Under the pieces are notes generated by a model. It saw nothing but the letters and a program-made list of their open reading frames with translations, searched no databases and had not been told where the DNA came from. This document shows positions 3,935 through 36,469 of a stretch of DNA of 36,469 bases, one piece after another. The stretch comes from a virus (Duplodnaviria; Heunggongvirae; Uroviricota; Caudoviricetes), in the IMG/VR virus record IMGVR_UViG_2724679138_000003; one strand, 5' to 3'. The position numbers and the translations under genes were made by a program. Position 1 is the first letter of the stretch, and each line of letters opens with the position of its first letter.

Positions 3935-3994
3935 TCGTCATGCTCCATAAACGACAAAACCGCCCGGAGGCGGTTTCACATAAAACATTTTGCA

Positions 3995-5283: not shown

Positions 5284-5288
5284 GGGAT

Positions 5289-5987: not shown

Positions 5988-5996
5988 CAGAGCCTC

Positions 5997-14540: not shown

Positions 14541-16049
14541 TTATTCTTCGGACTGGTTGTTGGTGTGCTGCGGCTCCTGTCGTTTCGTTGCGGCACTGCT
14601 ACCTCCTTTATCACTGGCCGGATCGGTATCAAATACCAGATCCAGCTTGCGGTTTTCATCAATTTCGGCCTTGCGCCGACGTTTGACATCATCCGGATTA
14701 CGACCACCAGCACGTACCCAGTCTGATTCTGTCGCCGCTCCACCACGAATCTGGATTTTCCAGGCCTCAGCCTCCTTAACAGGGTCAATCCACGGCATCA
14801 CCGGTCCGGAATACACCGCGGTATACAGTGAAGAACGGTCAAGATCGCGGGGTAGCCTGATAACACCGGATGCCACAGCCTGTTTCAGCCAGGCACGGTA
14901 CATCGGGCGGGTGACGGCACCAATAAACCAGTCCTGCAGGATCAGGTAGCCATCAGTGGATTCAACCAGCTCCTGACGCTGGGCGCTGTAAGTGCCGTTA
15001 TAGTTGCGCGCAGTACTGGAAAAACTCAGACGACTGCCAGCCGCCACTGCACGCAACTGACCATTACGAAAAGTTTCAAGATTAGGATTGGGGCGATCCG
15101 ACTTCACCATTCCGATTTCTTCGCCGGGTTTCAGATCGTCGTAAATAATGCCTGGCTGAATGGTAAGCTCGCGTTCCTTATCCTTGCTGCCATTACCATC
15201 CGGTTCATAGCTCTGCCCGTCGCCTTTGCGGATGTACATCCCCAGAGCAGCGGCGATCCTTGCTGCAGTCAGCTCAGAATCTTCATACTCTTTCAGGGCA
15301 CTGAGGCGGATCAACACACCGGACAACAAAGACGTCCCGCGCATCTGGTGCAGACGGCGAACAAATTTAAGATGCAGCATTCGCTCTGCATCCACTTCTT
15401 TGGTTTCCATCTGCCGTCCGGATACGGGACGGCTTTTATACACCAGATATTTTTCGGGACGCCCCCAGTCATCAACAAACACGCCCTGATTCAGCCTGTT
15501 GCTCTCATCACTGGTCATGGGAATAAAGTCCGGCTCGAGCGCCTCCAGCCAGAAATGAACACCGGCAGAAGGCGTCAGGCTGTTTATGCGCCCGGAAACC
15601 ATCTGGGCAAACACCTCACCATCGCGCAGCCAGGTACGCAGCATCAGACGTTCCAGCATCGGACGGGTAAACTGCCCGGTGACTTCCGGGCTGACAGACC
15701 ATTCACTCCATCGGGTGCGAATCTCCGCAGCCAGGTCACGGGCAATGGCTCCATTGCGTAATACCGGATGTGGCTCGACAATAATTCCGTTTTTCCCCAC
15801 CACCCGTTCTTCCAGCTTGTCAAATACACCAATAACCAGATCGTGGTTGTTATCAAGGTAACGGGCCTGCTCACGTAACGACACGGCCCCGTACTGGCTT
15901 AACTGGTCGGCAGTTCGGTTTTCCCGCCGGGCTTTGTGTGTCCGCGTCGTTTTTACGGCCTCATAAGCCTGGATCACCGCACGGGAACGCAGCCTTGCCG
16001 CTTTCCATCCTGGTGAAAAAACGCCAATCACATCATCAAGAATTGCCAT
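14541..16049 (-). CDS. Portal protein (lambda gpB-like)
   Basis: About 502 aa; ATG 16049 overlaps the W stop (TGATG); position between W and protease/capsid. Confidence 0.8.
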   Translation of the reverse strand: MAILDDVIGVFSPGWKAARLRSRAVIQAYEAVKTTRTHKARRENRTADQLSQYGAVSLREQARYLDNNHDLVIGVFDKLEERVVGKNGIIVEPHPVLRNGAIARDLAAEIRTRWSEWSVSPEVTGQFTRPMLERLMLRTWLRDGEVFAQMVSGRINSLTPSAGVHFWLEALEPDFIPMTSDESNRLNQGVFVDDWGRPEKYLVYKSRPVSGRQMETKEVDAERMLHLKFVRRLHQMRGTSLLSGVLIRLSALKEYEDSELTAARIAAALGMYIRKGDGQSYEPDGNGSKDKERELTIQPGIIYDDLKPGEEIGMVKSDRPNPNLETFRNGQLRAVAAGSRLSFSSTARNYNGTYSAQRQELVESTDGYLILQDWFIGAVTRPMYRAWLKQAVASGVIRLPRDLDRSSLYTAVYSGPVMPWIDPVKEAEAWKIQIRGGAATESDWVRAGGRNPDDVKRRRKAEIDENRKLDLVFDTDPASDKGGSSAATKRQEPQHTNNQSEE

Positions 16050-16261: not shown

Positions 16262-18360
16262 AACCATCCTCCGGAAGTCAGCCAGGGGTTAACATCGTCA
16301 GTTACTGTTTTCTTCCGTTTTTGTTTTTTAACAGGCGTGGATACCGGTTCCGGTGTGGGTGACGGTTCGGTACTGTCCGGGACACACTCCAGCCAGGTTT
16401 CCCGGCTCGCCCACTCCGGTGCATCCGGCCAGCGGATCTTTTCGTATCCATGCAGAATGACCAGAGCCTCGGCATACACCATCAGGTCAAAAGCTTCGTT
16501 GGCACCGCGACCCGGCTTACTCCATTTCCCGTCACTGCTCCGCTCTTCATACGTCAGTTCGTCGTAAAACCAGCTCCCCAGCCAGTCAGGGAAATGCACA
16601 TAGCCTGGACCTGGCGAGTCACGCCATAACGCGTTATTCACCCGGTCTTTCAGGGCATCCGTCTGAAGAAGCCAGAGCGGCACATCACCTGCGGCCTGCG
16701 CCCGGCGGCCCGTTCGTCCGGTGTTATCAGGGAATGTACGGCTGATCAGTTTTGCGCGCCGGATGCTGTCACCCTTAAACAGGTAAATACGTTTACCAAG
16801 GCCATCACGACGGCAACGACGCCAGAATTTATAGGCATTATCAGTGACCCCGTCTTCACCGCCGGAGTCCACCGCCATTGCCATCAGTCGCATTTGTTGA
16901 GAAGGATCGGAGGCCAGCGGCCAGCTTTTATGAAAAACATCCGTCAGCAGGACATCCCAGTCTTCCGGATAGCTGGCCGGATCAATTCGCTGGCTCTCCC
17001 CGTCGCTGTCACCGCGCAATGACTGCGTGATGTTGTAACGATCAATAATCCAGCGTTCGCCACGGCTGCCATAGCCCGTTACCTGAACCACAAAACGGCG
17101 ATGACGTCCCGCCTGCACATCCACTGTCGCCACAAGGAAATTAACGCCATCCGGCACACTGCGGGAAGGAACTGGCTCTGCCCGCTGCTCAAGCAGTTCA
17201 CTTTTTCGTTGCTCCATGCTGGCGCGGGGAAGATAAGGTAATCCCCAGTCGGTATTGATAACCGTCTTGAGTGTTTCTTCACTTCCGGTTGTCTCGTATT
17301 CCTGTTCTGCAGTAAGCAGTTTGTAAACGAGTTGCGAGAGTGTCTGATAAGCAGCTGCCGGACCCTCCATCCAGAATGACGCAATACGTGAACGCCGGGG
17401 ATCACCATAACGACTGCCATCTGCATTGATGGATTCACCATCCCGTAACCAGACCCCACGTCCGTTCAGCTCGCGTTTTTGTTCAGGCAAAATCCGTCCT
17501 GAACAGGAAGGACACTGAATATAAGCCGCCTCACTTGCCAGCACAGGATCGGCAATATCACGGAAACCAGCAACCACATCGCCGCAGGGCTGAAAATACT
17601 CACCACAGTGTGGACAGGGCCAGTACCAGCGACGGCGATCGCCACGGTTATAGAGCGACAGGATCCCCGTGGTTGGTGGAGCCTCATGCGGTGAAGTCCG
17701 TCGCCATTTCACATCCTTCACATCCCTGCCGGGGGAACTCTCCACCAGCGTCATACCACTGGACATAAATGTGGTGGTACGTTTTGAGGCAAGAGAGAAG
17801 GCATCCCCCTCACCATCAATATCTTCCGGAAAACGGTCATAATCCGTCAGCGCCACGCATTTATAATCTGATGAAGACATGATATTGACTGACGGCCAGC
17901 CGATTTTCAGGTAGTTGCCAGCAAGGAATGTTCTGTCATAAACGTTGTTGTCATTTTTGTTCGGACTCAGGCGACTGACCACTTCCGGGCTGACGCGAAA
18001 CGTTCTGGCGAGTCGTTTTTTGGAGTGTTCGCGGGCTTTTTCCTCCGTCATCTGAATGATCAGCATATCAGCAGGATCGCAAATCACGTTGTAAATCACC
18101 CAGCCGTCAATCAGGCCGATAGTCTTGCCGGTTCGTGCCGGGCCAACAAATATCACTGCGTCGTATTCACGCGAGGCCAGGCAGTTCATAGGCTCAATAA
18201 CATACGGTGCCACCAGCGGATCCCACGGGACTGAGTTCCCTGCCCCCATAGGCACCCGCATATACTGAGCAACGGCATCAGCAACCCGCATTCGTCTCGG
18301 TGCGCGAAGGATATAACCTGAATCGGTTCGTGCTGCCTTTGCGGTTTCCTGATTCAGCAT
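16258..18360 (-). CDS. Terminase large subunit (lambda gpA family)
   Basis: 700 aa; Walker A-like VGPARTGKT; CPHCGE motif as in lambda A (recalled); AGGAGG upstream; start overlaps the small-subunit stop (TAATG). Confidence 0.88.
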   Translation of the reverse strand: MLNQETAKAARTDSGYILRAPRRMRVADAVAQYMRVPMGAGNSVPWDPLVAPYVIEPMNCLASREYDAVIFVGPARTGKTIGLIDGWVIYNVICDPADMLIIQMTEEKAREHSKKRLARTFRVSPEVVSRLSPNKNDNNVYDRTFLAGNYLKIGWPSVNIMSSSDYKCVALTDYDRFPEDIDGEGDAFSLASKRTTTFMSSGMTLVESSPGRDVKDVKWRRTSPHEAPPTTGILSLYNRGDRRRWYWPCPHCGEYFQPCGDVVAGFRDIADPVLASEAAYIQCPSCSGRILPEQKRELNGRGVWLRDGESINADGSRYGDPRRSRIASFWMEGPAAAYQTLSQLVYKLLTAEQEYETTGSEETLKTVINTDWGLPYLPRASMEQRKSELLEQRAEPVPSRSVPDGVNFLVATVDVQAGRHRRFVVQVTGYGSRGERWIIDRYNITQSLRGDSDGESQRIDPASYPEDWDVLLTDVFHKSWPLASDPSQQMRLMAMAVDSGGEDGVTDNAYKFWRRCRRDGLGKRIYLFKGDSIRRAKLISRTFPDNTGRTGRRAQAAGDVPLWLLQTDALKDRVNNALWRDSPGPGYVHFPDWLGSWFYDELTYEERSSDGKWSKPGRGANEAFDLMVYAEALVILHGYEKIRWPDAPEWASRETWLECVPDSTEPSPTPEPVSTPVKKQKRKKTVTDDVNPWLTSGGWL

Positions 18361-22189: not shown

Positions 22190-22768
22190 TTAAGCACTTT
22201 CTTGCTCACTCTGCAACTTAAATCTGTCGCTATTTGTGCCGAATGCGTCACAAACTGGAGCGTACAGGATCGATTCTGCAAGACTTAGCCAAGTGTCAAT
22301 GCGTCGACGACAGGTGATCAGCGGCCAGTCAGGATGTTTAGCCTGCAGTTCATTGGCCATCTGCAACTTGCTCTTACGAAGACGATACCGGTCAACAATC
22401 ACGCTATAGAGCGATCGGTAGTCATCATTCATCAGTACTGAAGCAATGACACCGTCCACTAACAACCCTTCTTCATCTGAACAGAACGCCAGGCCGCTTT
22501 TATTTTTGCTGTTGAGAATTTCACGCAGGTACGCTTCAAGTTCAGGCTTGGTGATACCCGCTATCTTCATCCGGCGTAGCGCTTCATTGATAGCTGTCTT
22601 GGTGATTTTCCCGGATGCCAGAAGCTGGTTAAACATGTTTCCACCACTACCACCGCCGATATAAGACCAGCGGCCCCACATGCGCAACTTGCCTTGTATC
22701 CAGATACTTTCCAGAGTACGAAGGCGAACCATTTCACCTGATTTGCCAACTTCAGAAGGATTAATCAT
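22190..22768 (-). CDS. Putative late-gene antiterminator (Q-like)
   Basis: 192 aa; position between YdfU and the terminator/lysis genes; motif LRMWGRWS resembles the W-G-x-W motif recalled for phage antitermination Q family. No zinc finger, so not lambda-type Q. Confidence 0.5.
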   Translation of the reverse strand: MINPSEVGKSGEMVRLRTLESIWIQGKLRMWGRWSYIGGGSGGNMFNQLLASGKITKTAINEALRRMKIAGITKPELEAYLREILNSKNKSGLAFCSDEEGLLVDGVIASVLMNDDYRSLYSVIVDRYRLRKSKLQMANELQAKHPDWPLITCRRRIDTWLSLAESILYAPVCDAFGTNSDRFKLQSEQESA

Positions 22769-22782
22769 TTAGCATTCTCCAC

Positions 22783-23832
22783 TTACGCCAGTACGCCTAT
22801 TGCCAGCGCACGATCGATAAAACGAAATATCAGCTCCAGCTGGGAGCCATACTTCTCTTCAAATGCCACGGTATCCGCATGCAGCTTGTCGTGATGCTTT
22901 CTGCACAAAGGCAACACAAAGAGATCATGTGCTTTGGTTCCCATTCCGCCCTGCCCGTGACCAATCAGATGATGCGGATCGTCGGCTGGCATACCGCAGC
23001 AAGCACACGGCTGTGTCTTAACCCAGCGTGTGTATTTCTCCTTAACCCAACGGTGACGTTTAGGCAGCTTCATGAAAGATTCCGGAGACTCTGGATCAAC
23101 GGTGATGCTTACCACCGTCTTTTCCTGTGATGGGTTTTGTTGCTGGTGGGCGTGAGGCAACGGTGCAAGATTTTTTGTGCGCTGTTTCAATATGCTGGTG
23201 GCGGTCTGCTCTCCCGGTACGATGTCGCTTTCGCGGTACACCGAGCAGTTTTTTTCCGCTGGTAATCCCAGCGAGCGACGTAATACCACTTCCGGTAGCG
23301 CGTCCGCCACCTGATTGCGGACCGCCCACCAGGATAATTCAGCCAGAGATAATTCACGCTCCTGCGTACCGCTTATTGCGTGACCGATGACGTCAATCAT
23401 CCATGCTGACAGGTTTTGATGAGCAAGTTGCTCGAGTGATTCGGATGTCTGGTCACGCAGCTGGTTGTCGCAGTGCCAGCACAACACCATTGCGCCGGTA
23501 CCATAACGGTGAATAACGGTTTCGCTGTGATGATAATCGCCGTGTGGCCACTGGCAGGATTTAATATGGCGCAACAGCCAGTCAGACAATGCACCAGCAC
23601 CACCAGCAGCACGAATTACCCGTGCGTTACTGAAAAACGGCAGCAATGTTTTGTCTTCCACCAGCGGCTGGCGAACGGCAGGAACGACCCCGGACGGCAG
23701 ATTACGCATGCTTTTCGGTTCCGGCTCCACCAGTACCCGGGTATTGTGGAATACCGGCATGGATTCACGGCCCGGCTTAACGACCACCAGCCCGAGTTCC
23801 GGTACCAGAACAGGTCGAAGTAATACCCGCAC
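22783..23832 (-). CDS. ydfU: YdfU-like DUF968 protein (C-terminal CxxC / HxxGxG / HH nuclease-like module)
   Basis: 349 aa; C-terminus ...QPCACCGMPADDPHHLIGHGQGG...LPLCRKHHDKLH; GTG start with GGAGG; same size and position as Qin ydfU (recalled). Confidence 0.65.
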   Translation of the reverse strand: MRVLLRPVLVPELGLVVVKPGRESMPVFHNTRVLVEPEPKSMRNLPSGVVPAVRQPLVEDKTLLPFFSNARVIRAAGGAGALSDWLLRHIKSCQWPHGDYHHSETVIHRYGTGAMVLCWHCDNQLRDQTSESLEQLAHQNLSAWMIDVIGHAISGTQERELSLAELSWWAVRNQVADALPEVVLRRSLGLPAEKNCSVYRESDIVPGEQTATSILKQRTKNLAPLPHAHQQQNPSQEKTVVSITVDPESPESFMKLPKRHRWVKEKYTRWVKTQPCACCGMPADDPHHLIGHGQGGMGTKAHDLFVLPLCRKHHDKLHADTVAFEEKYGSQLELIFRFIDRALAIGVLA

Positions 23833-24178: not shown

Positions 24179-24442
24179 TTATTCTTCTGCAAAAGCTGAA
24201 AAGCCTGCTTTTATTCCGATCTCTTTCAGTGCCTGTAATGAAGTGACAAACTCACCTTCGCGCAAGATAAATCCGTCTGTCACTCGACCATCCACAAAAT
24301 TAATTAACGCAGCCCCATTCTTTCGCAAACACATAATGCGGTAATGACTAACAAGATTTCCATTTTCAACGCACACAGCATAGAGGCCATCTTCACAAAA
24401 ATTTTTACGCAGTTCTTCGATGTTCATCATCATGTTCATCAT
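24179..24442 (-). CDS. Hypothetical protein (87 aa)
   Basis: ATG with GGAAGG SD; no recognizable motif. Confidence 0.45.
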   Translation of the reverse strand: MMNMMMNIEELRKNFCEDGLYAVCVENGNLVSHYRIMCLRKNGAALINFVDGRVTDGFILREGEFVTSLQALKEIGIKAGFSAFAEE

Positions 24443-24559
24443 CAGAATCCTTCCGGATAATTAGCTCTCCCCTTTAAGGGACCATCCCTCTTCTCCCTGC
24501 GCGCTACTTAAGTATTTTTGATTCTATTCCGGCACCGTCCAGAACTTCAAACGCGTTGA

Positions 24560-24590
24560 AAATAAAAACAAAAACCCGCCGAAGCGGGTT
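24560..24590 (-). terminator. Rho-independent terminator downstream of hokD
   Basis: Minus-strand AACCCGC-ttcg-GCGGGTT followed by TTTGTTTTTATTTT; a perfect 9-bp hairpin (GGCGAGGGA-tttc-TCCCTCGCC, 24630-24651) lies between it and the hokD stop. Confidence 0.7.
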
Positions 24591-24658
24591 AAGTGCGGGT
24601 GCGTTGAGGATGCCTGCCACATCAGAGGTGGCGAGGGATTTCTCCCTCGCCGGGTCTC

Positions 24659-24814
24659 TTACTCCTCAGGTTCGTAAGCTGTGAAGACAGCGACCTCCGT
24701 CTGGCCGGTTCGGATTCGTACCTCGCAAAGGTCTTTCCTCGTTACCAGTGCCGTCACTATGACGGTTAAACAGATGACGATCAGGGCGATTAACATCGCC
24801 TTTTGCTGCTTCAT
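24659..24814 (-). CDS. hokD: Hok/Gef-family type I toxin (HokD/RelF-like)
   Basis: 51 aa, MKQQKAMLIALIVICLTVIVTALVTRKDLCEVRIRTGQTEVAVFTAYEPEE: N-terminal TM helix and conserved Hok C-terminus; matches K-12 HokD as recalled. Confidence 0.85.
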   Translation of the reverse strand: MKQQKAMLIALIVICLTVIVTALVTRKDLCEVRIRTGQTEVAVFTAYEPEE

Positions 24815-25279
24815 AGCCTGCTTCTCCTTGCCTTTCGGCACGTAAGAGGCTAACCTACATGTGTCTAGCATGAAATTGGCCTCAGATTAATGTTAAGCGT
24901 CTTGCAGGACGCGTAATGTTAACTGGGGCTTTTCTCTATCTGCCGTTGGTGTTCATGCCCGAGGCAGATAGCCTCAAGCACCCGCAGTCATTCTACTTAA
25001 CTACCGTTACCTCGCCAATGTGAAATCAGTCAGAAAGGCGATCCATAAGAACAATAGCAAGACAATAAATCGCCATTACAGCCGTAATAGCCAGCGCACA
25101 TTTGAGAACCAGCACCACAACCTCCTGTATTGGACGTACACCAGTCCTGATGAATATGAGGCTGTCTCGTCAGTGATTCAATACAACTATTGGGTATAGT
25201 TTCTCTGATTTTTTCTGTGGAAATGGGGCTCAACCACTAGTCATTTAATACGCAAAGTCCGACACAAGCTAACCTTCTA

Positions 25280-25303
25280 GTCCGCTTTGAGCGAGGAGCG
25301 GAC
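25280..25303. repeat. 24-bp hairpin element, left boundary of AT-rich island
   Basis: GTCCGCTTTGAGCGAGGAGCGGAC: 7-bp stem GTCCGCT/AGCGGAC. A 22/24-identical inverted copy lies at 27769-27792. Confidence 0.6.
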
Positions 25304-25623
25304 CTTGTGTAAAAATCCCCATACCGGTTGATCGCGCTGAATGTTAGGTTCATAAACGACACAGGGTACATCGTAATGCTGCTCTATTGCTTCGTAAGTG
25401 ATTCCCAATCGCTGCATCACTCGCTGAGAAGGAGTTCGACAACAGCCACTAAATAGTTGTGCATAGAGAACGACTGGAAAAGGCCGTAGGAACTTACAAA
25501 TCTCAATTCACGGTAGAGTATGATATGGGTATTCAATATAAATACAGCCCTCAAAGGTTTAAATATGAACGGAAGTGTTAAAAACAATCTATCGTCAAAA
25601 AAGTACAAGCTAAAAGAAAAATT

Positions 25624-25911
25624 TTGAATTTGAATCGCGAGCTTTCTAATGGAAAGATCACTCAGGCTGATTATTGTCTATACAAAAAACTGTTTGAAGA
25701 CTACATTCAGGTATTAACATTTCAACACACAAGAATTTTTGTGGAAAAAGATTTAATAGAACTATCAAATCATCGAAGTGGAGTATTCATTACAACTCAG
25801 CATGATACATTAGTAAATAGACTTGACAAAATTGATTATGAAATTGACAGATTAAAAAACTGTTTAAATAAAAAAATTATCGATTACACAAAATTCACAT
25901 CCCTATATTAG
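25624..25911 (+). CDS. Questionable AT-rich ORF (95 codons, no in-frame ATG)
   Basis: Track ORF starts at TTG with no SD. A 20-codon ATG ORF with SD (25565-25627) sits upstream in another frame and ends in A-runs. May be a frameshifted gene or non-coding. Confidence 0.25.
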   Translation: MNLNRELSNGKITQADYCLYKKLFEDYIQVLTFQHTRIFVEKDLIELSNHRSGVFITTQHDTLVNRLDKIDYEIDRLKNCLNKKIIDYTKFTSLY

Positions 25912-26004
25912 GATTTTCTAAGAGTACGACACCGTCACATTTAAATATTATTTGTAGAGGTAAAATGACAGCCTGACGGCGGTATTTCATTGCGAAATGC
26001 TATT

Positions 26005-26027
26005 TAAAAGACCGCATTGAGCGGTCT
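26005..26027 (-). terminator. Hairpin terminator downstream of the island ORF pair
   Basis: Minus-strand AGACCGC-tcaat-GCGGTCT followed by TTTAAAT; about 40 nt past the TAG stop at 26064. Confidence 0.5.
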
Positions 26028-26063
26028 TATGTATCTCACAACATATTACAGAATGACTTTAAA

Positions 26064-26819
26064 CTATTGTTTTAATAACATTTCAAAATCCTCATTCCAG
26101 TGCGTGTTTTGTGAAATACGGGTATCAATTTCATCAAGCAGCATATCATGAGAAAGTATGCTTAAAGGGTCATTCCCATTTTTACCAAAACGCATCGTAG
26201 TTTCTGCTATTTCCCAATCTTCTGCGCTGATTGATGGCTGTATTGCATGGCAGTAGATAGCCTTCACATCCTTTTCATGACAGTCAAAATTATTGATGCT
26301 TTCTGCAATTTTACGAGCTCTTTCAATTTCGACAACTGGACCATGTAAAGTTTCATATGATATATGCACAATTGTAGGGGTATTATCTGGAACCTGTCGT
26401 ACCGCTTTGCTTAAGTGCGTTTTAATATCTTTTGCTTTTTTATTAATCGATTCCTCTGCTATACATTCCCAACGAGCACAGTAACCAGAGTGTATTCCAG
26501 TGCAAAAAATGTTAAGTATATCAACACCGTCGTCCGGACCTACTCGTACAAGTCCTTTTGGGGCACAAAGATGAGTGTAATTTTCGCTGCTGCTAAAACT
26601 TCCGGCCAACAACGAAACCATCTGTGGAGAGTTCCATTTAACCATGTATTTATCAAAATGCTCATTGATATTTTTCATATCTATTCTATTAATCAGTATT
26701 ATAATTTCATCATTTTCTATTCTCAGTGACTTTCTCGTCGAGATATTAGACTTTATTTCATTGAAGATTTTTGCTAAAATATATTCATCTGTATCTTTTA
26801 CTTCAACCTTGAAAAGCAC
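26064..26819 (-). CDS. Island ORF B (251 codons), unknown function; possibly the C-terminal part of a gene split by a TAA
   Basis: Same frame as ORF A with only one TAA (26886-26888) and 22 sense codons between them; no ATG or SD of its own (track start is GTG 26819); AT-rich codon usage. Confidence 0.5.
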   Translation of the reverse strand: MLFKVEVKDTDEYILAKIFNEIKSNISTRKSLRIENDEIIILINRIDMKNINEHFDKYMVKWNSPQMVSLLAGSFSSSENYTHLCAPKGLVRVGPDDGVDILNIFCTGIHSGYCARWECIAEESINKKAKDIKTHLSKAVRQVPDNTPTIVHISYETLHGPVVEIERARKIAESINNFDCHEKDVKAIYCHAIQPSISAEDWEIAETTMRFGKNGNDPLSILSHDMLLDEIDTRISQNTHWNEDFEMLLKQ

Positions 26820-26885
26820 GTCTAAAAATATGTTTTGTCTAGACTGAGTTAGAATAGGTACTAAATTGAGCCATCTTTGCCTCCA

Positions 26886-27518
26886 TTATCGACGCTCATT
26901 TTCAGAATATTCAGTCACTTTAGATAAACGCTTACATTCCACAAAAAAGCTTTCTTCACCTTTAGTAACTTTTAAATCAGGAGTTTTATTTAATGCTGTT
27001 TCTGGAATAAATTCTACTCTATAACCATTGCGCGCATACATAATCGCAACAACTAATTCAAACAATGTTGAATCAGGTTGATTTATTTTACCGTTAAGAA
27101 ATTCCGAAAGTTTTTCATCAATCCCAACAATTTTTTTTGCAAGCTCAATATGTCTTCCAACAGCCGCAAAAAAGGGAAATACTCGGGCTGATTGCGCTAA
27201 CTCGCTAACTAAAGGCCGTTCATGTAAGCATTCTACAAGAAAAAGATACCATGCAACCCAATCCTCATGAAATGCCACCCTATTTTTTGGCTCTTCCATA
27301 CTCTTCATTGCTTGGTCAAAATTCTTATAGGTGTTATCTTCCTGTTCTCTGAAGTACTTGACTACATTTTTTTTGCGAGTCTCCCAAGTATCCTTTTCCA
27401 GATAAGATAAAAACCAGTCCAATGCAATTTTCGTATGATGATGCCAGGGACTGGTATCCGTTGCTGCAAAAATCTCTTGTAGTTCTTTTGAATATTCCAA
27501 TGTCTGTGTGTTAGCCAT
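26886..27518 (-). CDS. Island ORF A (210 aa), unknown function with C-terminal PD-(D/E)xK-like motif
   Basis: ATG 27518 with GAGG 6 nt upstream; C-terminal ...LFELVVAIMYARNGYRVEFIPETALNKTPDLKVTKGEESFFVECKRL has helix-E, PD, and hydrophobic-ExK spacing typical of the restriction-endonuclease fold. Confidence 0.6.
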   Translation of the reverse strand: MANTQTLEYSKELQEIFAATDTSPWHHHTKIALDWFLSYLEKDTWETRKKNVVKYFREQEDNTYKNFDQAMKSMEEPKNRVAFHEDWVAWYLFLVECLHERPLVSELAQSARVFPFFAAVGRHIELAKKIVGIDEKLSEFLNGKINQPDSTLFELVVAIMYARNGYRVEFIPETALNKTPDLKVTKGEESFFVECKRLSKVTEYSENERR

Positions 27519-27768
27519 TTTGACCTCATCATTGTTAATTTATGAGATTTTACAACTTATAATGCATCTTCCAGATCGAGCCTCCAAGTAAGAAATCAGG
27601 CTAAATCAGACAGATATGTAATATATCCCTAGTCAATTAGGCAGTCCACCCATAAATCCTAACAGTACGAAAATGGTTGGAACGTTATCCTAGGTTACTG
27701 CTCATCGTTTCCTTATGACCTCAATATATAAATATCCCAGCTCTTGCGGTTCGATTGTATGATTGACA

Positions 27769-27792
27769 GTCCGCTCCTGGCACAAAGCGGAC
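27769..27792. repeat. 24-bp hairpin element, right boundary of AT-rich island (inverted copy)
   Basis: GTCCGCTCCTGGCACAAAGCGGAC; its reverse complement GTCCGCTTTGTGCCAGGAGCGGAC matches 25280-25303 at 22 of 24 positions. Confidence 0.6.
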
Positions 27793-27889
27793 AACCACGC
27801 CAGATCTACCCTGTGCCATGAAAAATGAGAATGTCAATTCACTCCTGAACTAATGCTTTTTAATCTAGTAACGTCTAAAATACCTAACA

Positions 27890-28291
27890 TTATCCCTGAT
27901 AAAATGCCAGTATGCGCTGCATAACTTCACTCATCCGGCACTCGCGACAGATTATGTTTAGGCGACTGTCGTAGCGACGTATTTCTCCATCAGGTAACGA
28001 CCAGATAAGGTCCGGATCAACCACAGCTGTTTTCTTCACCTTTGCCCTCGATAGTTTTTTGCGGGCGTTTTGCCAGTCCTTACGCGCCTGTTCAGACGGG
28101 AATAACCCGTAGCCGGAGTTGTATACATCGCCACTGGCTACCAGCTCTCTGGCAAGAACGCTCATCAGATATCTAGTCGCACCTGTTTTAGCTTCCAGTT
28201 GCCGTAACGTCTCACGACCACTCTGGCGCACGAGTTCCACCACCTGCCCTTTAATTTTTTCCCGCTCTTCTTGTGTAAAAACTTTTGCCAC
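27890..28291 (-). CDS. Hypothetical protein downstream of replication initiator (133 aa)
   Basis: GTG start at 28291 with GGGGG upstream; occupies the slot where lambda P (helicase loader) would sit but is far too small to be P or DnaC. Confidence 0.45.
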   Translation of the reverse strand: MAKVFTQEEREKIKGQVVELVRQSGRETLRQLEAKTGATRYLMSVLARELVASGDVYNSGYGLFPSEQARKDWQNARKKLSRAKVKKTAVVDPDLIWSLPDGEIRRYDSRLNIICRECRMSEVMQRILAFYQG

Positions 28292-28331: not shown

Positions 28332-29297
28332 TTATCCTCTGAAACCAGGCGGAATTTCTGTATCCGGTTCAGAAATATGATTCACACAACGCTGTACAGG
28401 TGAACGTCCCAGGCGGATGACCAGTTCGTCCCATTTTTCGCGGAGTTTTGACGGGCTCATGATGTTTTTTACCCAGAATGGATCCCGCTGTACCCGACCA
28501 AACATTTCGCAAATTTGTCTGTGGCTTCTGCCATCCAGCATCCGCATTGTGCGCACGTCATTGGCCCAGGCTGTCCAGTTAGGCTCTTTTGGTCGCATGA
28601 TCTCTCCATCGTCGCTGGCAGCCTGTTCGTAAAGGTTCACGATCCGCCCCCAAATCCACTGCGCACACGCCAAATCCTCCCTGCTACCCCACTGGCGTTT
28701 TTTCACACTAAACACAACCGCGTCGGGGTTCCGAGTTAAAAAATCCTGTTCAGTCGTCTGCGGGTCCGGTTGCGAAGCTTCCGGACGAAAAGTGTTTTTA
28801 TTCTCTGTAGTAATCTCTGTTGTATTCTCTGTAAGATCATCAGGCCATTTTGACCCGATGACATTGGGTCGTTTTGAACCAATGGAGCGTTTCATTTTGA
28901 CCTCTTCCATCGTGTCATTTTGACCTGATGGAGCGGCGCATTTTGAACCGATGGATTCGTTCAATTTGCCACCATCTAAAAGCTCGCTCCCATAGTTGAT
29001 CGTGTAGAAATTGGTCATATCGCGCTTTGATTTATTGAGCTTTTCACAACGCAAAAGCCCCAGCGTTTTCAGACTTGCAAACGCGCGCTTTAACGTTGAC
29101 TCTGACCAGAATGGGAACTGTTCCAGCCATTGTTCCGTTGTGTTGTAAATCCAGCGAACACCATCACATTCCATGCCGGAATTGGTATCTCTCAACCAGT
29201 AATGCAACTGCTGCAACACAATGGCTTCATTTAAGCCAATCTTCATCGCAAGCTGTGTGTTTATAACCAGTGGGCGTTCAGCAAAAAGAAGGCTCAT
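28332..29297 (-). CDS. Replication initiator protein (lambda O-like) with internal origin iterons
   Basis: N-terminal helix-turn-helix-like region; six ~23-bp direct repeats inside the coding sequence, as in ori-lambda within gene O. Start is uncertain (ATG 29297 or TTG 29351). Confidence 0.7.
   Translation of the reverse strand: MSLLFAERPLVINTQLAMKIGLNEAIVLQQLHYWLRDTNSGMECDGVRWIYNTTEQWLEQFPFWSESTLKRAFASLKTLGLLRCEKLNKSKRDMTNFYTINYGSELLDGGKLNESIGSKCAAPSGQNDTMEEVKMKRSIGSKRPNVIGSKWPDDLTENTTEITTENKNTFRPEASQPDPQTTEQDFLTRNPDAVVFSVKKRQWGSREDLACAQWIWGRIVNLYEQAASDDGEIMRPKEPNWTAWANDVRTMRMLDGRSHRQICEMFGRVQRDPFWVKNIMSPSKLREKWDELVIRLGRSPVQRCVNHISEPDTEIPPGFRG
28846..28984. repeat. Origin of replication iterons: six tandem ~23-bp repeats (consensus CATTTTGACC-N-GATGGAGCG)
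   Basis: Repeat cores at 28846, 28870, 28893, 28916, 28939 and 28962 (CATTTTGACC / CGTTTTGAACC / CAATTTGCC), adjoined by TTCTCTGT repeats at 28801-28835. Confidence 0.65.
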
Positions 29298-29799
29298 AAT
29301 TCCATCCAGCTTTTTGTTGGTATTGCTGTCGATACGCAAGTTTGAAAGCAATTGCTTTTTCTATAAGTTCGTCAGTTTCACGATCCACTACGGCAGGATC
29401 AGCAAAAAGCAGTCCGGACTCCACCACATCGCCATATTCTTTGTTTAACCCGGCGATCATGTACGTGATGCTTTTTCCGTCACTAATTTCACGATACAAC
29501 CTGAAATCATTAATCCGGATAGCCTCCATAATTGCAGGCACTAGCGCCGTGAACTTTTCACGCTTATCCCTAGTGTCGATAGCCTTCCAGCGTTCGAATA
29601 TCTTCACTCGATTAACGCCAAGCGCTCGCTGATCAACCGCGCCACCTTCATCTGTGACACGCTGAACATCGATGTTCGGGCGCTCTTTCAAAGCCCAGAA
29701 TGCTTCAGTGATTAATATCGTCGCCTGCTCCTGTGTCATTCCTGGTCGACATATCCAGGCATCCAGAGCCTCACGAGCCTGTTCAGGAGTGATTTTCAT
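29278..29799 (-). CDS. Early-region protein between Cro-like gene and replication initiator (possible CII/YdaT-like regulator)
   Basis: 173-aa ORF overlapping the DicC-like 3' end by 17 nt; function not recognizable from sequence. Confidence 0.45.
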   Translation of the reverse strand: MKITPEQAREALDAWICRPGMTQEQATILITEAFWALKERPNIDVQRVTDEGGAVDQRALGVNRVKIFERWKAIDTRDKREKFTALVPAIMEAIRINDFRLYREISDGKSITYMIAGLNKEYGDVVESGLLFADPAVVDRETDELIEKAIAFKLAYRQQYQQKAGWNYEPSFC

Positions 29800-30010
29800 T
29801 GTTCAACCGCCCCGCCCGCTTCGTCTTACGATATTCGTCATAAACCTTGGGATCATACAGAAGCTCGCCGCCAGATGCCTCCTGTAGACGCATCGCGCGA
29901 CCTTCAGGAACCAGCTCTTGCCATTGAGAAACAGCAGATGGGTCAACGCCAGCAGCTTTCGCTACTTTGGCTTTCGTACCGTAAAAATTAATTACGTCTG
30001 ATTTAAACAT
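29783..30010 (-). CDS. dicC: Cro-like regulator (DicC-like)
   Basis: About 75 aa from ATG 30010 (GGAGG 4 nt upstream): MFKSDVINFYGTKAKVAKAAGVDPSAVSQW... (HTH); divergent from the DicA-like repressor. Confidence 0.65.
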   Translation of the reverse strand: MFKSDVINFYGTKAKVAKAAGVDPSAVSQWQELVPEGRAMRLQEASGGELLYDPKVYDEYRKTKRAGRLNNENHS

Positions 30011-30087
30011 CGCACCTCCAATATTGAGTTTTCTCAATGCTAATCACTCAAGGAATCTCAAGTCAAGGGTTATTAAGATATCTAAAT
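30011..30087. promoter_or_regulatory. Divergent promoter/operator region between dicC-like and dicA-like genes
   Basis: 77-bp intergenic spacer containing the palindrome TTGAGTTTTCTCAA (30024-30037) and CTCAAGGAATCTCAAG. Confidence 0.5.
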
Positions 30088-35154: not shown

Positions 35155-35188
35155 CTAAAAGCCACACTAACTAATGAGAGAAGTTGAA

Positions 35189-36469
35189 ATGAAATATCCG
35201 ACAGGCGTGGAAAACCATGGAGGGAAATTACGTATCTGGTTTGTTTATAAAGGCGTAAGAGTCAGGGAAAATCTGGGGGTTCCTGACACAGCAAAAAACA
35301 GGCGCGTTGCAGGTGAACTACGCGCCTCTGTTTGTTACGCAATAAAAACTGGTGTTTTCGACTATGCAAAACAGTTTCCCTCCTCACGCAATCTGGAAAA
35401 ATTTGGTGAGGCCCGACAAGATTTAACCATAAAAGAACTGGCTGAAAAATTTCTGGCACTGAAAGAAACTGAAGTCGCCAAAACATCACTCAACACATAC
35501 CGTGCCGTCATCAAAAATATCCTGAGCATAATCGGTGAAAAAAATCTTGCCTCATCGATTAATAAAGAAAAATTACTGGAGGTTCGTAAAGAGCTACTGA
35601 CTGGATACCAGATCCCTAAAAGTAACTATATTGTTACACAACCAGGGAGATCGGCTGTAACTGTAAATAATTACATGACAAATCTTAACGCCGTGTTCCA
35701 GTTTGGTGTTGATAACGGTTACCTGGCAGATAATCCGTTTAAGGGGATCTCGCCATTAAAGGAATCAAGAACCATTCCGGATCCTCTTTCGCGGGAGGAA
35801 TTTATCCGTCTTATCGATGCGTGCAGAAATCAGCAAGCAAAAAATTTATGGTGTGTTTCTGTTTATACTGGCGTTCGCCCTGGTGAGCTGTGTGCACTTG
35901 GATGGGAGGACATAGATCTGAAAAATGGAACAATGATGATCAGGAGAAATTTAGCAAAAGACCGTTTCACGGTACCAAAAACACAGGCGGGAACCAATCG
36001 GGTCATTCATCTTATTAAGCCAGCAATCGACGCTCTCCGGAGTCAGATGACATTAACGAGACTGAGCAAAGAGCATATCATTGATGTTCACCTCAGAGAG
36101 TATGGCAGAACAGAAAAACAAAAATGCACCTTTGTTTTTCAACCTGAAGTGTCAGCGAGAGTAAAAAATTATGGTGACCATTTTACCGTTGACTCAATAA
36201 GGCAGATGTGGGACGCAGCGATAAAACGAGCCGGACTCCGCCATCGAAAATCATATCAGTCGAGACATACTTATGCCTGCTGGTCGCTGACAGCTGGTGC
36301 TAACCCGGCATTTATAGCAAACCAGATGGGCCATGCAGATGCGCAAATGGTATTTCAGGTATACGGAAAATGGATGTCTGAAAACAATAATGCACAGGTA
36401 GCTTTGTTAAATACACAGTTAAGTGAGTTTGCCCCAACCATGCCCCATAACGAAGCAATGAAAAATTAA
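35189..36469 (+). CDS. Tyrosine recombinase / phage integrase (Rac IntR-like)
   Basis: MKYPTGVENHGGKLRIWFVYKG...; catalytic-domain motifs including ...HRKSYQSRHTYACW... (R-H-R-Y family); stop codon at the window end. Confidence 0.88.
   Translation: MKYPTGVENHGGKLRIWFVYKGVRVRENLGVPDTAKNRRVAGELRASVCYAIKTGVFDYAKQFPSSRNLEKFGEARQDLTIKELAEKFLALKETEVAKTSLNTYRAVIKNILSIIGEKNLASSINKEKLLEVRKELLTGYQIPKSNYIVTQPGRSAVTVNNYMTNLNAVFQFGVDNGYLADNPFKGISPLKESRTIPDPLSREEFIRLIDACRNQQAKNLWCVSVYTGVRPGELCALGWEDIDLKNGTMMIRRNLAKDRFTVPKTQAGTNRVIHLIKPAIDALRSQMTLTRLSKEHIIDVHLREYGRTEKQKCTFVFQPEVSARVKNYGDHFTVDSIRQMWDAAIKRAGLRHRKSYQSRHTYACWSLTAGANPAFIANQMGHADAQMVFQVYGKWMSENNNAQVALLNTQLSEFAPTMPHNEAMKN

What the first reader, a model, noticed from the sequence alone, without database searches (positions are those of the whole stretch)
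25280..27792. Inverted copies of a 24-bp hairpin element bracket the AT-rich island
GTCCGCTTTGAGCGAGGAGCGGAC (25280-25303) and the reverse complement of 27769-27792 (GTCCGCTTTGTGCCAGGAGCGGAC) match at 22 of 24 positions, and each forms a 7-bp-stem hairpin. They sit at the compositional boundaries of the island, 2.5 kb apart, in inverted orientation. Neither is followed by a U-run, so they are not ordinary terminators; they may be recombination sites or terminal repeats that mobilize the cassette.
Basis: seen in the sequence. Interest (0 to 1): 0.55.

Follow-up and report, generated by a model that had tools for sequence, protein, structure and literature searches.

The report
Recombination-site hairpins bounding a prophage gene cassette
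The two inverted 24-base hairpins are the end sites of a swappable gene cassette that sits in a hotspot of a lambda-like E. coli prophage; the same sites bound hundreds of different cargo genes (many anti-phage defence systems) in phages, plasmids and chromosomes of enterobacteria, and a small recombinase gene found between such sites in related loci is the likely enzyme that moves them.

Summary
The hairpins lie at 25280-25303 (+, "type A", core GAGCGA) and 27769-27792 (-, "type B", core GTGCCA). They match at 22 of 24 positions in inverted orientation, and they are the only copies in the window.

They are not terminators and not generic REP elements. They are the two ends of a discrete cassette in the DUF977-hokD hotspot of a Qin/Rac-like lambdoid prophage.

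- **Same flanks, different cargo.** Prophages with identical flanks carry many unrelated cargos, and homology breaks at the inner hairpin edge.
- **Same cargo, different flanks.** Identical cargos sit in unrelated backbones, and homology then starts and stops at the outer hairpin edges.
- **Crossover point.** Position by position, the outer hairpin half travels with the flank and the inner half with the cargo. This places the crossover in the 6-nt core.
- **Known relative.** The same sites flank fun(Z) in phage P2, where inverted repeats and site-specific recombination were proposed in 2004.
- **Arrays.** Cassettes occur in tandem, joined by conserved 14-18-nt linkers.
- **Candidate enzyme.** A ~200-aa tyrosine recombinase, absent from this window, sits between an A and a B site in related arrays, including this same hotspot in another E. 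coli strain.

The enzyme assignment is inferred, not shown. This is a new member of a known but neglected kind, with a new lead on the enzyme.

The parts
25280..25303 (+). Type A cassette-end site: 9-nt outer arm GTCCGCTTT, 6-nt core GAGCGA, 9-nt inner arm GGAGCGGAC. It is read from the hokD flank into the cargo.
   Evidence: sequence and fold; homology to other prophages ends at its inner edge; family consensus
27769..27792 (-). Type B cassette-end site: outer arm GTCCGCTTT, core GTGCCA, inner arm GGAGCGGAC. It is read on the minus strand from the DUF977 flank into the cargo.
25304..27768 (.). Cassette interior (cargo), 2465 nt, GC about 0.35. The same cassette is present in 11 of 5426 complete E. 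coli genomes.
   Evidence: cluster C03
26064..27518 (-). Cargo gene. It encodes a 484-aa protein of an uncharacterised family with a PD-(D/E)xK-like nuclease core (D181, E194, K196 invariant). In this window it is interrupted by an in-frame TAA at 26886-26888.
   Evidence: nonsense change versus EC93; no PADLOC hit; family, invariant residues; AF2 model with pLDDT 87; only a local Hjc-like match
25624..25911 (+). 95-aa ORF inside the cassette. It is not annotated in RefSeq relatives and has no family match; coding status unverified.
26008..26028 (.). Strong hairpin (AAGACCGC / GCGGTCTT) between the two convergent cargo ORFs; terminator-like on both strands.
   Evidence: z about -4 to -4.7
27793..27850 (-). 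B-side outer adaptor (contains ATGGCACAGGGTAGA). It is conserved next to the first B site in both the lambdoid and the P2 contexts. Function unknown.
25240..25279 (+). A-side outer adaptor: an 18-nt linker-like stretch plus what looks like a decayed B-type site (reverse complement GTCGGACTTTGCG...). This is a weak reading made by eye.
   Evidence: comparison with the conserved linkers
27890..28291 (-). DUF977 (YdaW-like) gene, the conserved upstream border of the hotspot.
   Evidence: upstream of the array in 56 IMG/VR loci
24659..24983 (-). hokD / sok type I toxin-antitoxin locus, the conserved downstream border of the hotspot.

Best explanation
The two hairpins are the type A and type B end sites of a mobile gene cassette.

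**Site anatomy.** Each site is a 24-bp near-palindrome with 9-6-9 anatomy (GTCCGCTYY - G[A/T]GC[G/C]A - RRAGCGGAC, usually followed by RTT on the cargo side). The cassette is always B ... cargo ... A, with both sites pointing inwards.

**Where DNA is exchanged.** Exchange happens inside the 6-bp core. The outer arm stays with the resident flank and the inner arm travels with the cargo.

**Why there are two site types.** The A and B cores differ at two positions and the sites are inverted. A therefore pairs only with A and B only with B. This keeps cargo polarity fixed and prevents inversion or deletion between the two ends. Natural exchange then resembles engineered recombinase-mediated cassette exchange.

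**How arrays grow.** Single-site events can also insert a circular unit of the form 'B - cargo - A - linker', which builds tandem arrays.

**The enzyme (inferred).** The most likely catalyst is a ~200-aa catalytic-domain-only tyrosine recombinase. Its gene sits in the linker position between an A and a B site in some arrays and would act in trans on cassettes such as this one, which has no such gene in the window.

**Shown versus inferred.** Shown by comparison: the exact boundaries, the exchange point, the arrays, the cargo diversity and the linkage between recombinase and sites. Inferred: catalysis by that recombinase and circular intermediates.
For: 1. **Same flanks, different cargo.** L001 and L002 share the window's flanks, and divergence starts at the inner edge of both hairpins. 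One DUF977 flank is followed by at least 9 different cargos and one hok flank is preceded by at least 15.
2. **Cargo diversity and polarity.** 66 complete B..A cassettes in an IMG/VR sample fall into 29 unrelated cargo clusters of 541-5779 bp. Cargo orientation relative to B and A never flips.
3. **Same cargo, different backbone.** L010 (lambdoid) and L123 (186-like phage, downstream of gpA) share only bases 1149-2637, running from the first base of B to the last of A, at 99.7% identity. 25 alignments covering at least 80% of a cassette (18 distinct locus pairs) show cassette-only homology with both ends within 12 nt of the outer hairpin edges. Among all 229 such alignments the start offsets are bimodal, mostly -400 or 0.
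4. **Position-wise signature.** With the same flank and different cargo, the hairpins differ at positions 16-24. With the same cargo and a different flank, they differ at positions 1-9.
5. **Truncated sites.** These break at the core edges. The QueH locus keeps only GTCCGCTTTG of B.
6. **P2.** fun(Z) is flanked by B(+) at 15335-15358 and A(-) at 17432-17455. A review states that fun is flanked by inverted repeats enabling site-specific recombination, citing Nilsson 2004 (PMC8987985). Yersinia phage P37 has the empty G-FI site without hairpins.
7. **Arrays.** A(-) and B(+) are joined by conserved linkers: an 18-nt class CTTCAGCTCAGTNAGCTN and a 16-nt class ATTGGCCTGCGTGTCA. L008 against L002 fits insertion of 'cargo-A-linker-B' at a resident B site.
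8. **Recombinase, downstream side.** The PF00589 protein of about 200 aa is followed 30 nt after its stop codon by ...CCCT|GTGCCA|RRAGCGGAC. This holds in 10 sites across 9 hairpin-fetched loci, in nearly all of the 14 loci fetched through the protein itself (11 exact, 3 with one core mismatch), and in all undisrupted close homologues in IMG/VR.
9. **Recombinase, upstream side.** An A(-) half-site lies at a fixed 34-43 nt upstream of the start codon.
10. **Diverged homologues.** These carry an analogous hairpin plus a GGCCA/GGGCCA half-site.
11. **Same hotspot.** In E. coli UK_Dog_Liverpool the recombinase lies inside this same DUF977-hokD hotspot, between cassettes.
12. **Cargo content.** Cargos include DarTG, Pycsar, a ThsA-like SIR2, NsnA/PD-T4-2, PD-T7-1 and PDC-S33, as expected for a defence hotspot.
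Against: - No experiment or read-level evidence (circular junctions, heterogeneity) was available.
- The window has no copy of the small recombinase. Only 772-919 of 5426 complete E. coli genomes have it, while the hotspot flanks are in about 4400-4800. Most cassettes are therefore currently without the proposed enzyme.
- Only about 10 of 239 hairpin-fetched loci contain the gene within the fetched stretch.
- The exchange point is resolved only to positions 9-16, because the core is invariant. Short-homology recombination would give a similar average pattern.
- Linker lengths vary (9-19 nt), and outer adaptors beyond the hairpins are also partly conserved. The unit that moves may therefore not always be the simple cassette.
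- No compensatory changes support or exclude hairpin formation.
- Many IMG/VR loci are near-identical prophages, so the counts are not independent.
Confidence: 0.7

Rival explanations
1. There is no dedicated enzyme. The hairpins are conserved for some other reason, such as RNA 3'-end protection or insulation of cargo transcripts. Cassette swapping is then a by-product of ordinary or phage-encoded homologous recombination (RecA, Red/RecT-type annealing) across 24-27 bp of shared sequence, much as promoter/stem-loop repeats shuffle genes in T4-type phages.
For: The conserved site plus RTT is about 27 bp, close to the minimal homology usable by E. coli recombination (own knowledge). The outer-with-flank, inner-with-cargo pattern is what any crossover inside a short shared segment would give. 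Most genomes with cassettes lack the small recombinase. Within one phage family the long flanking homologies (DUF977, hok) suffice for swaps.
Against: The sequence is extremely conserved across Enterobacterales and beyond, independently of flank and cargo. Two distinct cores are maintained, with strict B...A polarity. Truncated sites break at the core edges. The linkers are conserved. A tyrosine recombinase gene is precisely embedded between an A and a B half-site at fixed distances. No RNA role is evident: there is no U-tract and no Rfam family.
Confidence: 0.17
2. The hairpins are REP/BIME- or REPIN-like selfish palindromic elements, with doublets of inverted hairpins. They would spread through intergenic DNA with the help of an HUH (RAYT-type) enzyme and only incidentally mark gene boundaries.
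For: A(-)/B(+) doublets with short conserved linkers resemble BIMEs/REPINs. A related multi-copy hairpin family exists in high-GC metagenomic contigs. A conserved short motif (RTT) abuts the hairpin, as GTAG abuts REPs (the REP feature is from own knowledge).
Against: Copy number is low: two copies in 36 kb, both at cassette edges, and usually one to three stretches per species genome. No HUH/RAYT-like gene is enriched nearby. Single hairpins flank kilobase-sized cargos, and whole cassettes move as units. The associated gene is a tyrosine recombinase.
Confidence: 0.04
3. The hairpins are terminal inverted repeats of a non-autonomous transposon (a mobile insertion cassette) moved by a DDE transposase encoded elsewhere.
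For: The 24-bp repeats are inverted at both ends of a discrete unit that is found in unrelated contexts.
Against: There is no target-site duplication: the flanks are GGTT|B ... A|TAGA. The outer half of each repeat stays with the flank rather than moving with the element. The two ends carry different conserved cores. Cassettes stack head-to-tail with conserved linkers in fixed hotspots rather than inserting at random. No transposase is enriched nearby.
Confidence: 0.04
4. The hairpins are transcription terminators or insulators of the prophage backbone that merely delimit a region where foreign DNA is tolerated.
For: They are stable GC-rich stems placed between operons. In P2 the region lies between the V-operon terminator and the F promoter.
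Against: There is no T/U run on either strand, and the terminator scan does not call them. They travel with cassettes into unrelated backbones. They are absent from the empty P2-type site, which has its own terminator.
Confidence: 0.03

Closest known systems
Inverted repeats flanking fun(Z) in the G-FI ('TO') region of P2-like coliphages (Nilsson, Karlsson and Haggard-Ljungquist 2004, Mol Biol Evol 21:1; not readable here, cited through PMC8987985)
   Same: It is the same sequence family. P2 has B(+) GTCCACTCTGTGCCAAAAGCGGAC at 15335-15358 and A(-) at 17432-17455 around fun(Z). In both cases the sites are inverted around low-GC foreign genes and site-specific recombination has been proposed.
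   Different: The present case is in a lambdoid (Qin/Rac-like) prophage between DUF977 and hokD. This study adds several things that, as far as the held literature shows, are not described and are not mentioned in recent hotspot papers: the A/B core distinction, the exchange point inside the core, tandem arrays with conserved linkers, the spread over plasmids and chromosomal islands of many Enterobacterales, and a candidate recombinase.
Integrons (IntI integrase, attI, attC-bounded cassettes)
   Same: Both are platforms that stack promiscuous gene cassettes in arrays. Both have a tyrosine recombinase encoded next to a special site, imperfect palindromic sites, and defence genes as frequent cargo.
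   Different: Here there are two 24-bp sites per cassette, in inverted orientation and with different cores, instead of one 57-141-nt attC in direct orientation. The exchange point is inside each hairpin core, not at a GTT in an R' box. Cargo can be on either strand. The recombinase is about 200 aa, is not an IntI, and lies in a linker between an A and a B site.
pdif modules of Acinetobacter plasmids (XerC/XerD-dependent; own knowledge)
   Same: Both are discrete modules carrying accessory genes, bounded by inverted short recombination sites with arm-core-arm anatomy, and found in many unrelated contexts.
   Different: There is no sequence resemblance to dif/pdif. The arms are palindromic (one type of arm) rather than XerC and XerD halves. 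Neighbouring cassettes do not share a site but are joined by 14-18-nt linkers. A dedicated small recombinase, rather than the host Xer system, is implicated.
Engineered recombinase-mediated cassette exchange (heterospecific lox/FRT pairs; own knowledge)
   Same: Two mutually incompatible sites flank a cassette, so double reciprocal exchange swaps cargo while keeping its orientation and avoiding excision or inversion.
   Different: That is an artificial design. The natural system described here is inferred from comparative data only.
REP/BIME/REPIN elements with RAYT transposases
   Same: Both have short GC-rich hairpins, pairs in inverted orientation with short conserved linkers, and two hairpin subtypes that alternate.
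   Different: Here the copy number is low, the sites occur only at the edges of variable cargo, and the linkage is to a tyrosine recombinase rather than an HUH enzyme.
Promoter-early stem-loop (PeSL) repeats that shuffle genes in T4-type phages (own knowledge)
   Same: Both are repeated short structured elements at the borders of hyperplastic regions that promote modular exchange of accessory genes in phages.
   Different: PeSLs are direct repeats with a known expression role and act through homologous recombination. The present sites are inverted, have no evident expression role, and are linked to a recombinase.

Membership tests
P2 fun(Z)/TO-region inverted repeats | The same repeat sequence flanks fun(Z) between genes G and FI of P2 | tested here: met
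   B(+) at 15335-15358 and A(-) at 17432-17455 in AF063097. The outer adaptor is also shared with the window.
P2 fun(Z)/TO-region inverted repeats | Inverted repeats bracket foreign, low-GC genes that differ between related phages | tested here: met
P2 fun(Z)/TO-region inverted repeats | The same cargo occurs in phage and non-phage genomes, bounded by the repeats | tested here: met
   chromosomal and plasmid arrays
P2 fun(Z)/TO-region inverted repeats | Recombination at the repeats demonstrated experimentally | not testable with these tools
Tyrosine-recombinase core site (lox/FRT/dif type) | Two inverted arms around a 6-8-bp asymmetric central region | tested here: met
   consensus GTCCGCTYY / G[AT]GC[GC]A / RRAGCGGAC. 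The stem arms are nearly invariant.
Tyrosine-recombinase core site (lox/FRT/dif type) | Strand exchange inside the central region | tested here: inconclusive
   One search places the exchange between positions 9 and 16. Truncated sites break at the core edges. The invariant core prevents finer mapping, and homologous recombination is not excluded.
Tyrosine-recombinase core site (lox/FRT/dif type) | A cognate tyrosine recombinase is encoded next to a site | tested here: met
   Met in related loci, not in the window; the gene lies between an A(-) half-site 34-43 nt upstream and a B(+) half-site 30 nt downstream. It is absent from the window.
Tyrosine-recombinase core site (lox/FRT/dif type) | Binding and cleavage by the recombinase | not testable with these tools
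   This needs biochemistry.
Integron | IntI-type integrase adjacent to attI | tested here: not met
   the protein is 200 aa with a catalytic domain only, and all NCBIfam hits (including the XerA/integron-integrase model) are far below their cut-offs. There is no IntI in the window.
Integron | One attC (57-141 nt, R''-L''...L'-R', crossover at G|TT) per cassette, all in direct orientation | tested here: not met
   There are two 24-bp sites per cassette, in inverted orientation, and the exchange point is inside the hairpin. Shared sequence between contexts covers both hairpins but not the linker.
pdif modules (XerC/XerD) | Sites match the XerC-arm / 6-nt / XerD-arm consensus | tested here: not met
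   Direct comparison with E. coli dif GGTGCGCATAATGTATATTATGTTAAAT (own knowledge) shows no resemblance. The arms are identical inverted copies.
pdif modules (XerC/XerD) | Modules are bounded by inverted sites and found in unrelated contexts | tested here: met
   (an architectural analogy only)
REP/BIME with RAYT | Many dispersed intergenic copies per genome | tested here: not met
   Two copies in the 36-kb window and usually 1-3 stretches per species genome.
REP/BIME with RAYT | Association with an HUH (RAYT) gene | tested here: not met
   no such family is enriched near 239 loci.
IS/MITE/mobile insertion cassette | Target-site duplication flanking the terminal inverted repeats | tested here: not met
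   the bases adjoining the two ends are unrelated.
IS/MITE/mobile insertion cassette | Terminal repeats move intact with the element | tested here: not met
   the outer half of each repeat co-varies with the flank.
Intrinsic terminator | GC-rich stem-loop followed by a U tract | tested here: not met

The most novel reading that the evidence does not exclude
The hairpins belong to a previously uncharacterised, integron-like but mechanistically distinct cassette system of Enterobacterales and some other Gammaproteobacteria. A minimal (~200-aa) tyrosine recombinase, itself housed between an A and a B site, would insert, excise and swap cassettes bounded by two heterospecific 24-bp sites. This would give a natural form of recombinase-mediated cassette exchange. 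It would explain how defence systems and other accessory genes hop between unrelated phages, satellites, plasmids and chromosomal islands.
Probability: 0.5. Interest if true: 0.85.

Novelty: new member of a known kind. Interest (0 to 1): 0.68.

Why it matters
Hotspots of temperate phages and their satellites are now mined for anti-phage defence systems. How their cargo is swapped is still unresolved, especially between unrelated mobile elements. A 2026 survey of P2 and P4 hotspots explicitly lists transposons, homologous recombination and illegitimate recombination as unsatisfactory options (PMC13586616).

Short conserved end sites, with a candidate dedicated recombinase, would supply that mechanism and make it directly testable. 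Three practical uses would follow:
- a sequence signature to delimit cassettes, and so to find new defence genes such as the uncharacterised nuclease-like cargo here;
- a way to recognise 'orphan' arrays that depend on a recombinase supplied in trans;
- possibly a compact natural cassette-exchange tool.

For this particular window the practical message is narrower. The AT-rich island is one such cassette, and its cargo gene is inactivated by a nonsense mutation.

Tried and rejected
- **Terminator or RNA element.** The scan finds no U-tract terminator at either hairpin. Rfam at a permissive threshold gives only sok and weak chance hits.
- **Inversion switch between the inverted repeats.** No cargo was found in the opposite orientation relative to B and A in any locus.
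- **Target-site duplications.** None were found.
- **Integron-style crossover at the RTT next to the hairpin.** This is rejected because the sequence shared between contexts includes both hairpins and excludes the linker.
- **Structure covariation.** The 7-bp stem is invariant. Pairs 8-17 and 9-16 are paired no more often than their base composition predicts. An apparent T:R wobble signal turned out to be an artefact of my own search pattern.
- **Doublets folding into one long hairpin.** They fold as two separate hairpins.
- **Empty site in E. coli.** None was found among 5426 genomes for this flank pair. The shortest occupants are about 830 nt, plus a QueH cargo with half a B site. An empty P2-type site was found in Yersinia phage P37.
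- **Enrichment of recombinases by clustering neighbouring ORFs.** This did not flag the small recombinase at first, because it was present in only 7 of 239 loci. It emerged from the analysis of half-sites.
- **Full cognate hairpins next to diverged recombinase homologues.** Only the L062/L291 contig showed them.
- **Literature.** The sequence motif is not found in held papers. Nilsson 2004 and Odegrip 2006 are not held. Recent hotspot papers do not mention the hairpins.
- **Cargo protein.** There is no Pfam, PADLOC or significant PDB fold match beyond a local Hjc-like nuclease core.
- **Untested recollection.** The resemblance of the B core region (TTTGTGCCA) to the 9-bp fimS repeat TTGGGGCCA, which is acted on by the similarly small FimB/FimE recombinases, comes from memory only and was not tested.


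Full report
**1. Observation**

GTCCGCTTTGAGCGAGGAGCGGAC lies at 25280-25303 on the plus strand. GTCCGCTTTGTGCCAGGAGCGGAC is the reverse complement of 27769-27792. They match at 22 of 24 positions.
- With up to three mismatches allowed they are the only copies in 36.5 kb, and none is expected by chance.
- Each folds alone into a 7-bp GC-rich stem with a 10-nt loop. As RNA the stem reaches 9 bp with G-U pairs on the strand that reads towards the island.
- Neither is followed by a T run, and neither is called by the terminator scan.
- They enclose 2465 nt with GC about 0.30-0.37, against about 0.45-0.55 outside.

I call the left one type A (core GAGCGA) and the right one type B (core GTGCCA).

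**2. Context**

The window is a lambdoid prophage of the Qin/Rac type. Its early rightward operon is on the minus strand:
- cro-like 29783-30037
- YdaT-like 29278-29799
- O-like 28332-29351, with iterons at 28838-28968
- DUF977/YdaW-like 27890-28291
- the island
- hokD/sok 24659-24983
- rem, then DUF968 22783-23832
- Q-like 22190-22768

Tail and head genes lie further left. A lambda-type integrase is at 35174-36469.

**3. The island is one of many alternative cargos**
- The flanks occur in about 4400-4800 of 5426 complete E. coli genomes, but only 11 carry this cargo.
- Prophages with the same flanks and other cargos (L001, L002) have both hairpins, and their sequence diverges from the window at the inner edge of each hairpin.
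- A pattern scan of IMG/VR returned 119 stretches. The recurrent architecture, read from DUF977 towards hok, is B(+) - cargo - A(-).
- 66 complete cassettes fall into 29 unrelated cargo clusters of 541-5779 bp. Most are AT-rich, with genes on either strand.
- One and the same DUF977 flank precedes at least nine cargos, and one hok flank follows at least fifteen.
- Cargo proteins include DarT/DarG, a Pycsar cyclase with its membrane effector, a ThsA-like SIR2, NsnA/PD-T4-2, PD-T7-1 and the RelA/SpoT-like PDC-S33. Others are metabolic, transport or LysR-type genes.

**4. The cassette, hairpins included, is a discrete unit**
- L010 (lambdoid) and L123 (a 186-like phage, downstream of the replication gene A) share nothing except 1489 bp. 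That stretch runs from the first base of B to the last base of A, at 99.7% identity.
- An all-against-all comparison gave 25 alignments (18 distinct locus pairs, several between different species) with cassette-only homology whose ends lie within 12 nt of the outer hairpin edges, mostly at offset 0. Over all 229 alignments covering at least 80% of a cassette, the start offsets are bimodal: either the flanks are homologous too, or homology starts at the hairpin.
- No cargo was ever found inverted relative to its B and A ends.

**5. Where the exchange happens**

I compared hairpins position by position.
- Copies with the same outer flank but different cargo differ almost only at positions 16-24.
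- Copies with the same cargo but different flanks differ mainly at positions 1-9.

The outer arm therefore belongs to the flank and the inner arm to the cargo, and the exchange point lies in between. That interval is the invariant 6-nt core at positions 10-15. Truncated sites support this:
- Several keep 'outer arm + core' or 'core + inner arm'.
- In prophages with a QueH cargo, only GTCCGCTTTG of the B site remains next to the DUF977 flank.

The family consensus is GTCCGCTYY - G[A/T]GC[G/C]A - RRAGCGGAC. On the cargo side it is followed by R-T-T, with T at +2 in 85-89% of unrelated cargo ends. This 9-6-9 anatomy, with an asymmetric centre, is that of a tyrosine-recombinase core site. Two conserved, different cores in inverted orientation would make A and B mutually incompatible. 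That accounts for the fixed polarity and for the absence of inversion.

**6. Known relative**
- Phage P2 carries the same sites around fun(Z): B(+) at 15335-15358 just after gene G and A(-) at 17432-17455 before the F promoter.
[quoted passage not shown] 2004 (PMC8987985). I could not read the original paper.
- Yersinia phage P37 shows the empty G-FI site: a terminator and the F promoter, with no hairpins.
- The 40-60 nt just outside the first B site and the last A site are also partly conserved between P2 and the lambdoid site. I cannot explain this.
- Recent hotspot papers do not mention the repeats (Rousset 2022; the iLund4u preprint; the 2026 NAR survey of P2/P4 hotspots). The last of these explicitly leaves the exchange mechanism open.

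**7. Range and arrays**
These cover Erwinia, Pantoea, Klebsiella, Citrobacter, Enterobacter, Serratia, Proteus, Rahnella and others, plus Idiomarina and a Pseudomonas plasmid. There are usually one to three stretches per genome, on chromosomes and plasmids.
- Many stretches are tandem arrays, with up to four cassettes in 8 kb.
- Contexts in phages include the NinB/NinG region, P2 G-FI, the region downstream of 186-type gpA, and umuDC-yedK islands.
- Between cassettes, A(-) and B(+) are joined by short linkers that are themselves conserved: an 18-nt class CTTCAGCTCAGTNAGCTN and a 16-nt class ATTGGCCTGCGTGTCA.
- Comparing L002 (one cassette) with L008 (two) fits insertion of a unit 'cargo-A-linker-B' at the resident B site. 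The resident outer arm stays next to the DUF977 flank, and a foreign outer arm now precedes the old cargo.

**8. A candidate enzyme**

Among the half-sites one form recurred...AGGGCTGCAACAGCAGCCCT|GTGCCA|RRAGCGGAC. It lies immediately downstream of a ~200-aa ORF.
- **The protein.** It is a tyrosine recombinase consisting of little more than the catalytic domain (PF00589). Its NCBIfam hits to Xer, integron-integrase and invertase models are all far below their cut-offs.
- **The family.** It is very large (more than 8000 database clusters) and unusually conserved, at 75-96% identity across Enterobacterales, Idiomarina, Cycloclasticus and others.
- **Loci fetched through the protein.** These are independent of the hairpins. 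Nearly all of the 14 carry the B-type half-site after the stop codon: 11 have the exact form and 3 have a single mismatch in the core. The Proteus/Providencia loci also have an A(-) half-site about 43 nt before the start codon, with ordinary B ... A cassettes on both sides.
- **IMG/VR.** Every undisrupted close homologue has the B half-site exactly 30 nt after the stop codon. Most have the A half-site 34-43 nt upstream of the start codon.
- **Diverged homologues (55-66% identity).** These have an analogous small hairpin followed by a GGCCA/GGGCCA core and an arm.

The gene thus occupies the linker position of an A/B junction. In E. coli UK_Dog_Liverpool it lies inside the very hotspot studied here:

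DUF977 - B - cargo - A - 18 nt - B - cargo (PD-T7-1-like) - A* - recombinase - B* - cargo - A - hokD

It is present in 772-919 of 5426 complete E. coli genomes, usually once. It is absent from this window. The cassette here would therefore be mobilised in trans, if at all.

**9. Most likely mechanism, and its rivals**

Best supported (confidence about 0.7 for the whole statement; higher for 'cassette-end recombination sites', lower for the enzyme):
- The small tyrosine recombinase acts at the 24-bp sites and exchanges strands in the core.
- B x B or A x A events insert or excise circular 'B-cargo-A-linker' units.
- Paired B x B and A x A events swap cargo between any two elements that carry the sites.

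The main rival is exchange by general or phage-encoded homologous recombination across about 27 bp of conserved sequence.
- It would produce a similar average breakpoint pattern.
- It fits the fact that most genomes lack the recombinase.
- It does not explain the strict conservation of two cores, the breaks at core edges, the conserved linkers, or the precise embedding of the recombinase gene.

REP/RAYT-type elements, transposon ends and terminators each fail defining tests.

**10. The cargo of this window**
- The gene at 26064-27518 (-) encodes a 484-aa protein in EC93 and other strains. In the window it carries an in-frame TAA at 26886-26888.
- The family is widespread in Gammaproteobacteria and Bacteroidota and has no Pfam or PADLOC match.
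- An AlphaFold model is confident (pLDDT 87). It matches solved structures only locally, at the PD-(D/E)xK core of archaeal Hjc resolvases. This is consistent with the invariant residues D181, E194 and K196.
- A role in defence is plausible from the context but untested.

**11. Limits**
- All evidence is comparative.
- Many IMG/VR loci are near-duplicates.
- My hairpin scans required near-canonical stems, so degenerate sites are under-counted, and composition at loop-proximal positions was biased by the fetch patterns.
- Whole genomes could not be scanned.
- The key 2004 paper could not be read.

**12. Verdict**

The element is a new member of a known but largely forgotten kind. Four results here may be new and bear on an acknowledged open question: the exchange point, the heterospecific cores, the arrays, and the candidate recombinase.

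Noticed in passing
window 26886-26888 (within 26064-27518, minus strand): The cargo gene has an in-frame stop (TAA; A at 26888 where strain EC93 has C). This splits the 484-aa protein into 210-aa and 251-aa ORFs, so the cassette's gene is probably inactive in this strain.
   Followed up: yes
window 26064-27518 (-); proteins P0001-P0087: The intact cargo protein belongs to a conserved, unnamed ~480-aa family in Gammaproteobacteria and Bacteroidota. It has no Pfam or PADLOC match and a confident AF2 model. Only a local Hjc-like PD-(D/E)xK core is recognisable, which makes it a candidate new defence nuclease.
   Followed up: partly
window 28838-28968: Four to five iterons with a 23-nt period lie inside the O-like replication gene. 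This is presumably the prophage origin.
   Followed up: no
window 24573-24983 (-): A complete hok/sok module is present: hokD CDS 24659-24814, Rfam sok 24809-24983 (115 bits), and an intrinsic terminator at 24573-24590. It forms the downstream border of the hotspot.
   Followed up: partly
window 26008-26028: A strong hairpin (AAGACCGC/GCGGTCTT, z about -4) sits between the convergent 95-aa ORF (25624-25911, +) and the cargo gene. It is a likely bidirectional terminator inside the cassette.
   Followed up: no
L124 (E. coli K-12 Qin) 4982-5005 and 5973-5996: In K-12 Qin, relBE abuts hokD, and degenerate B(+) and A(-) sites flank flxA in the opposite orientation to the window. This suggests rearrangement of the hotspot in this defective prophage.
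   Followed up: partly
L128 (E. coli EC19) about 1725-1745: Prophages with a QueH (epoxyqueuosine reductase) cargo between hokD and DUF977 keep only the outer arm GTCCGCTTTG of the B site and have no A site. The breakpoint is at the core.
   Followed up: partly
L061, L062 (= L291), L066, L100, L120: These high-GC metagenomic viral contigs carry a related multi-copy hairpin family (GTCCGCTTTGGGCCA..AGCGGAC and GTCCGCTTTACCCCCRAAAGCGGAC). The hairpins are arranged as direct, not inverted, doublets spaced by a few hundred bases. One contig also encodes a 55%-identical homologue of the small recombinase.
   Followed up: partly
window 27793-27850; P2 (L125) 15275-15334: About 45 nt outside the first B site (containing GTGAAYT.ACAT...ATGGCACAGRGTARA) are conserved between P2 and the lambdoid prophage. 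The sequence outside the last A site is also weakly similar. The function is unknown; this may be part of a larger platform.
   Followed up: partly
L329 (E. coli UK_Dog_Liverpool) 3858-9268: The same DUF977-hokD hotspot holds three cassettes plus the small tyrosine recombinase gene (7078-7680), flanked by modified A and B sites.
   Followed up: yes
L255-L260 (Proteus/Providencia islands): The small recombinase sits in variable regions of P4-integrase-type islands, next to TIR, SMC-like, SIR2/DUF87 and umuDC genes. This suggests the same cassette system feeds defence islands outside phages.
   Followed up: partly
window 24420-24443: There is an exact 12-nt tandem duplication (ATGTTCATCATC x2) at the 5' end of the rem-like ORF, giving the MMNMMMN start.
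   Followed up: no
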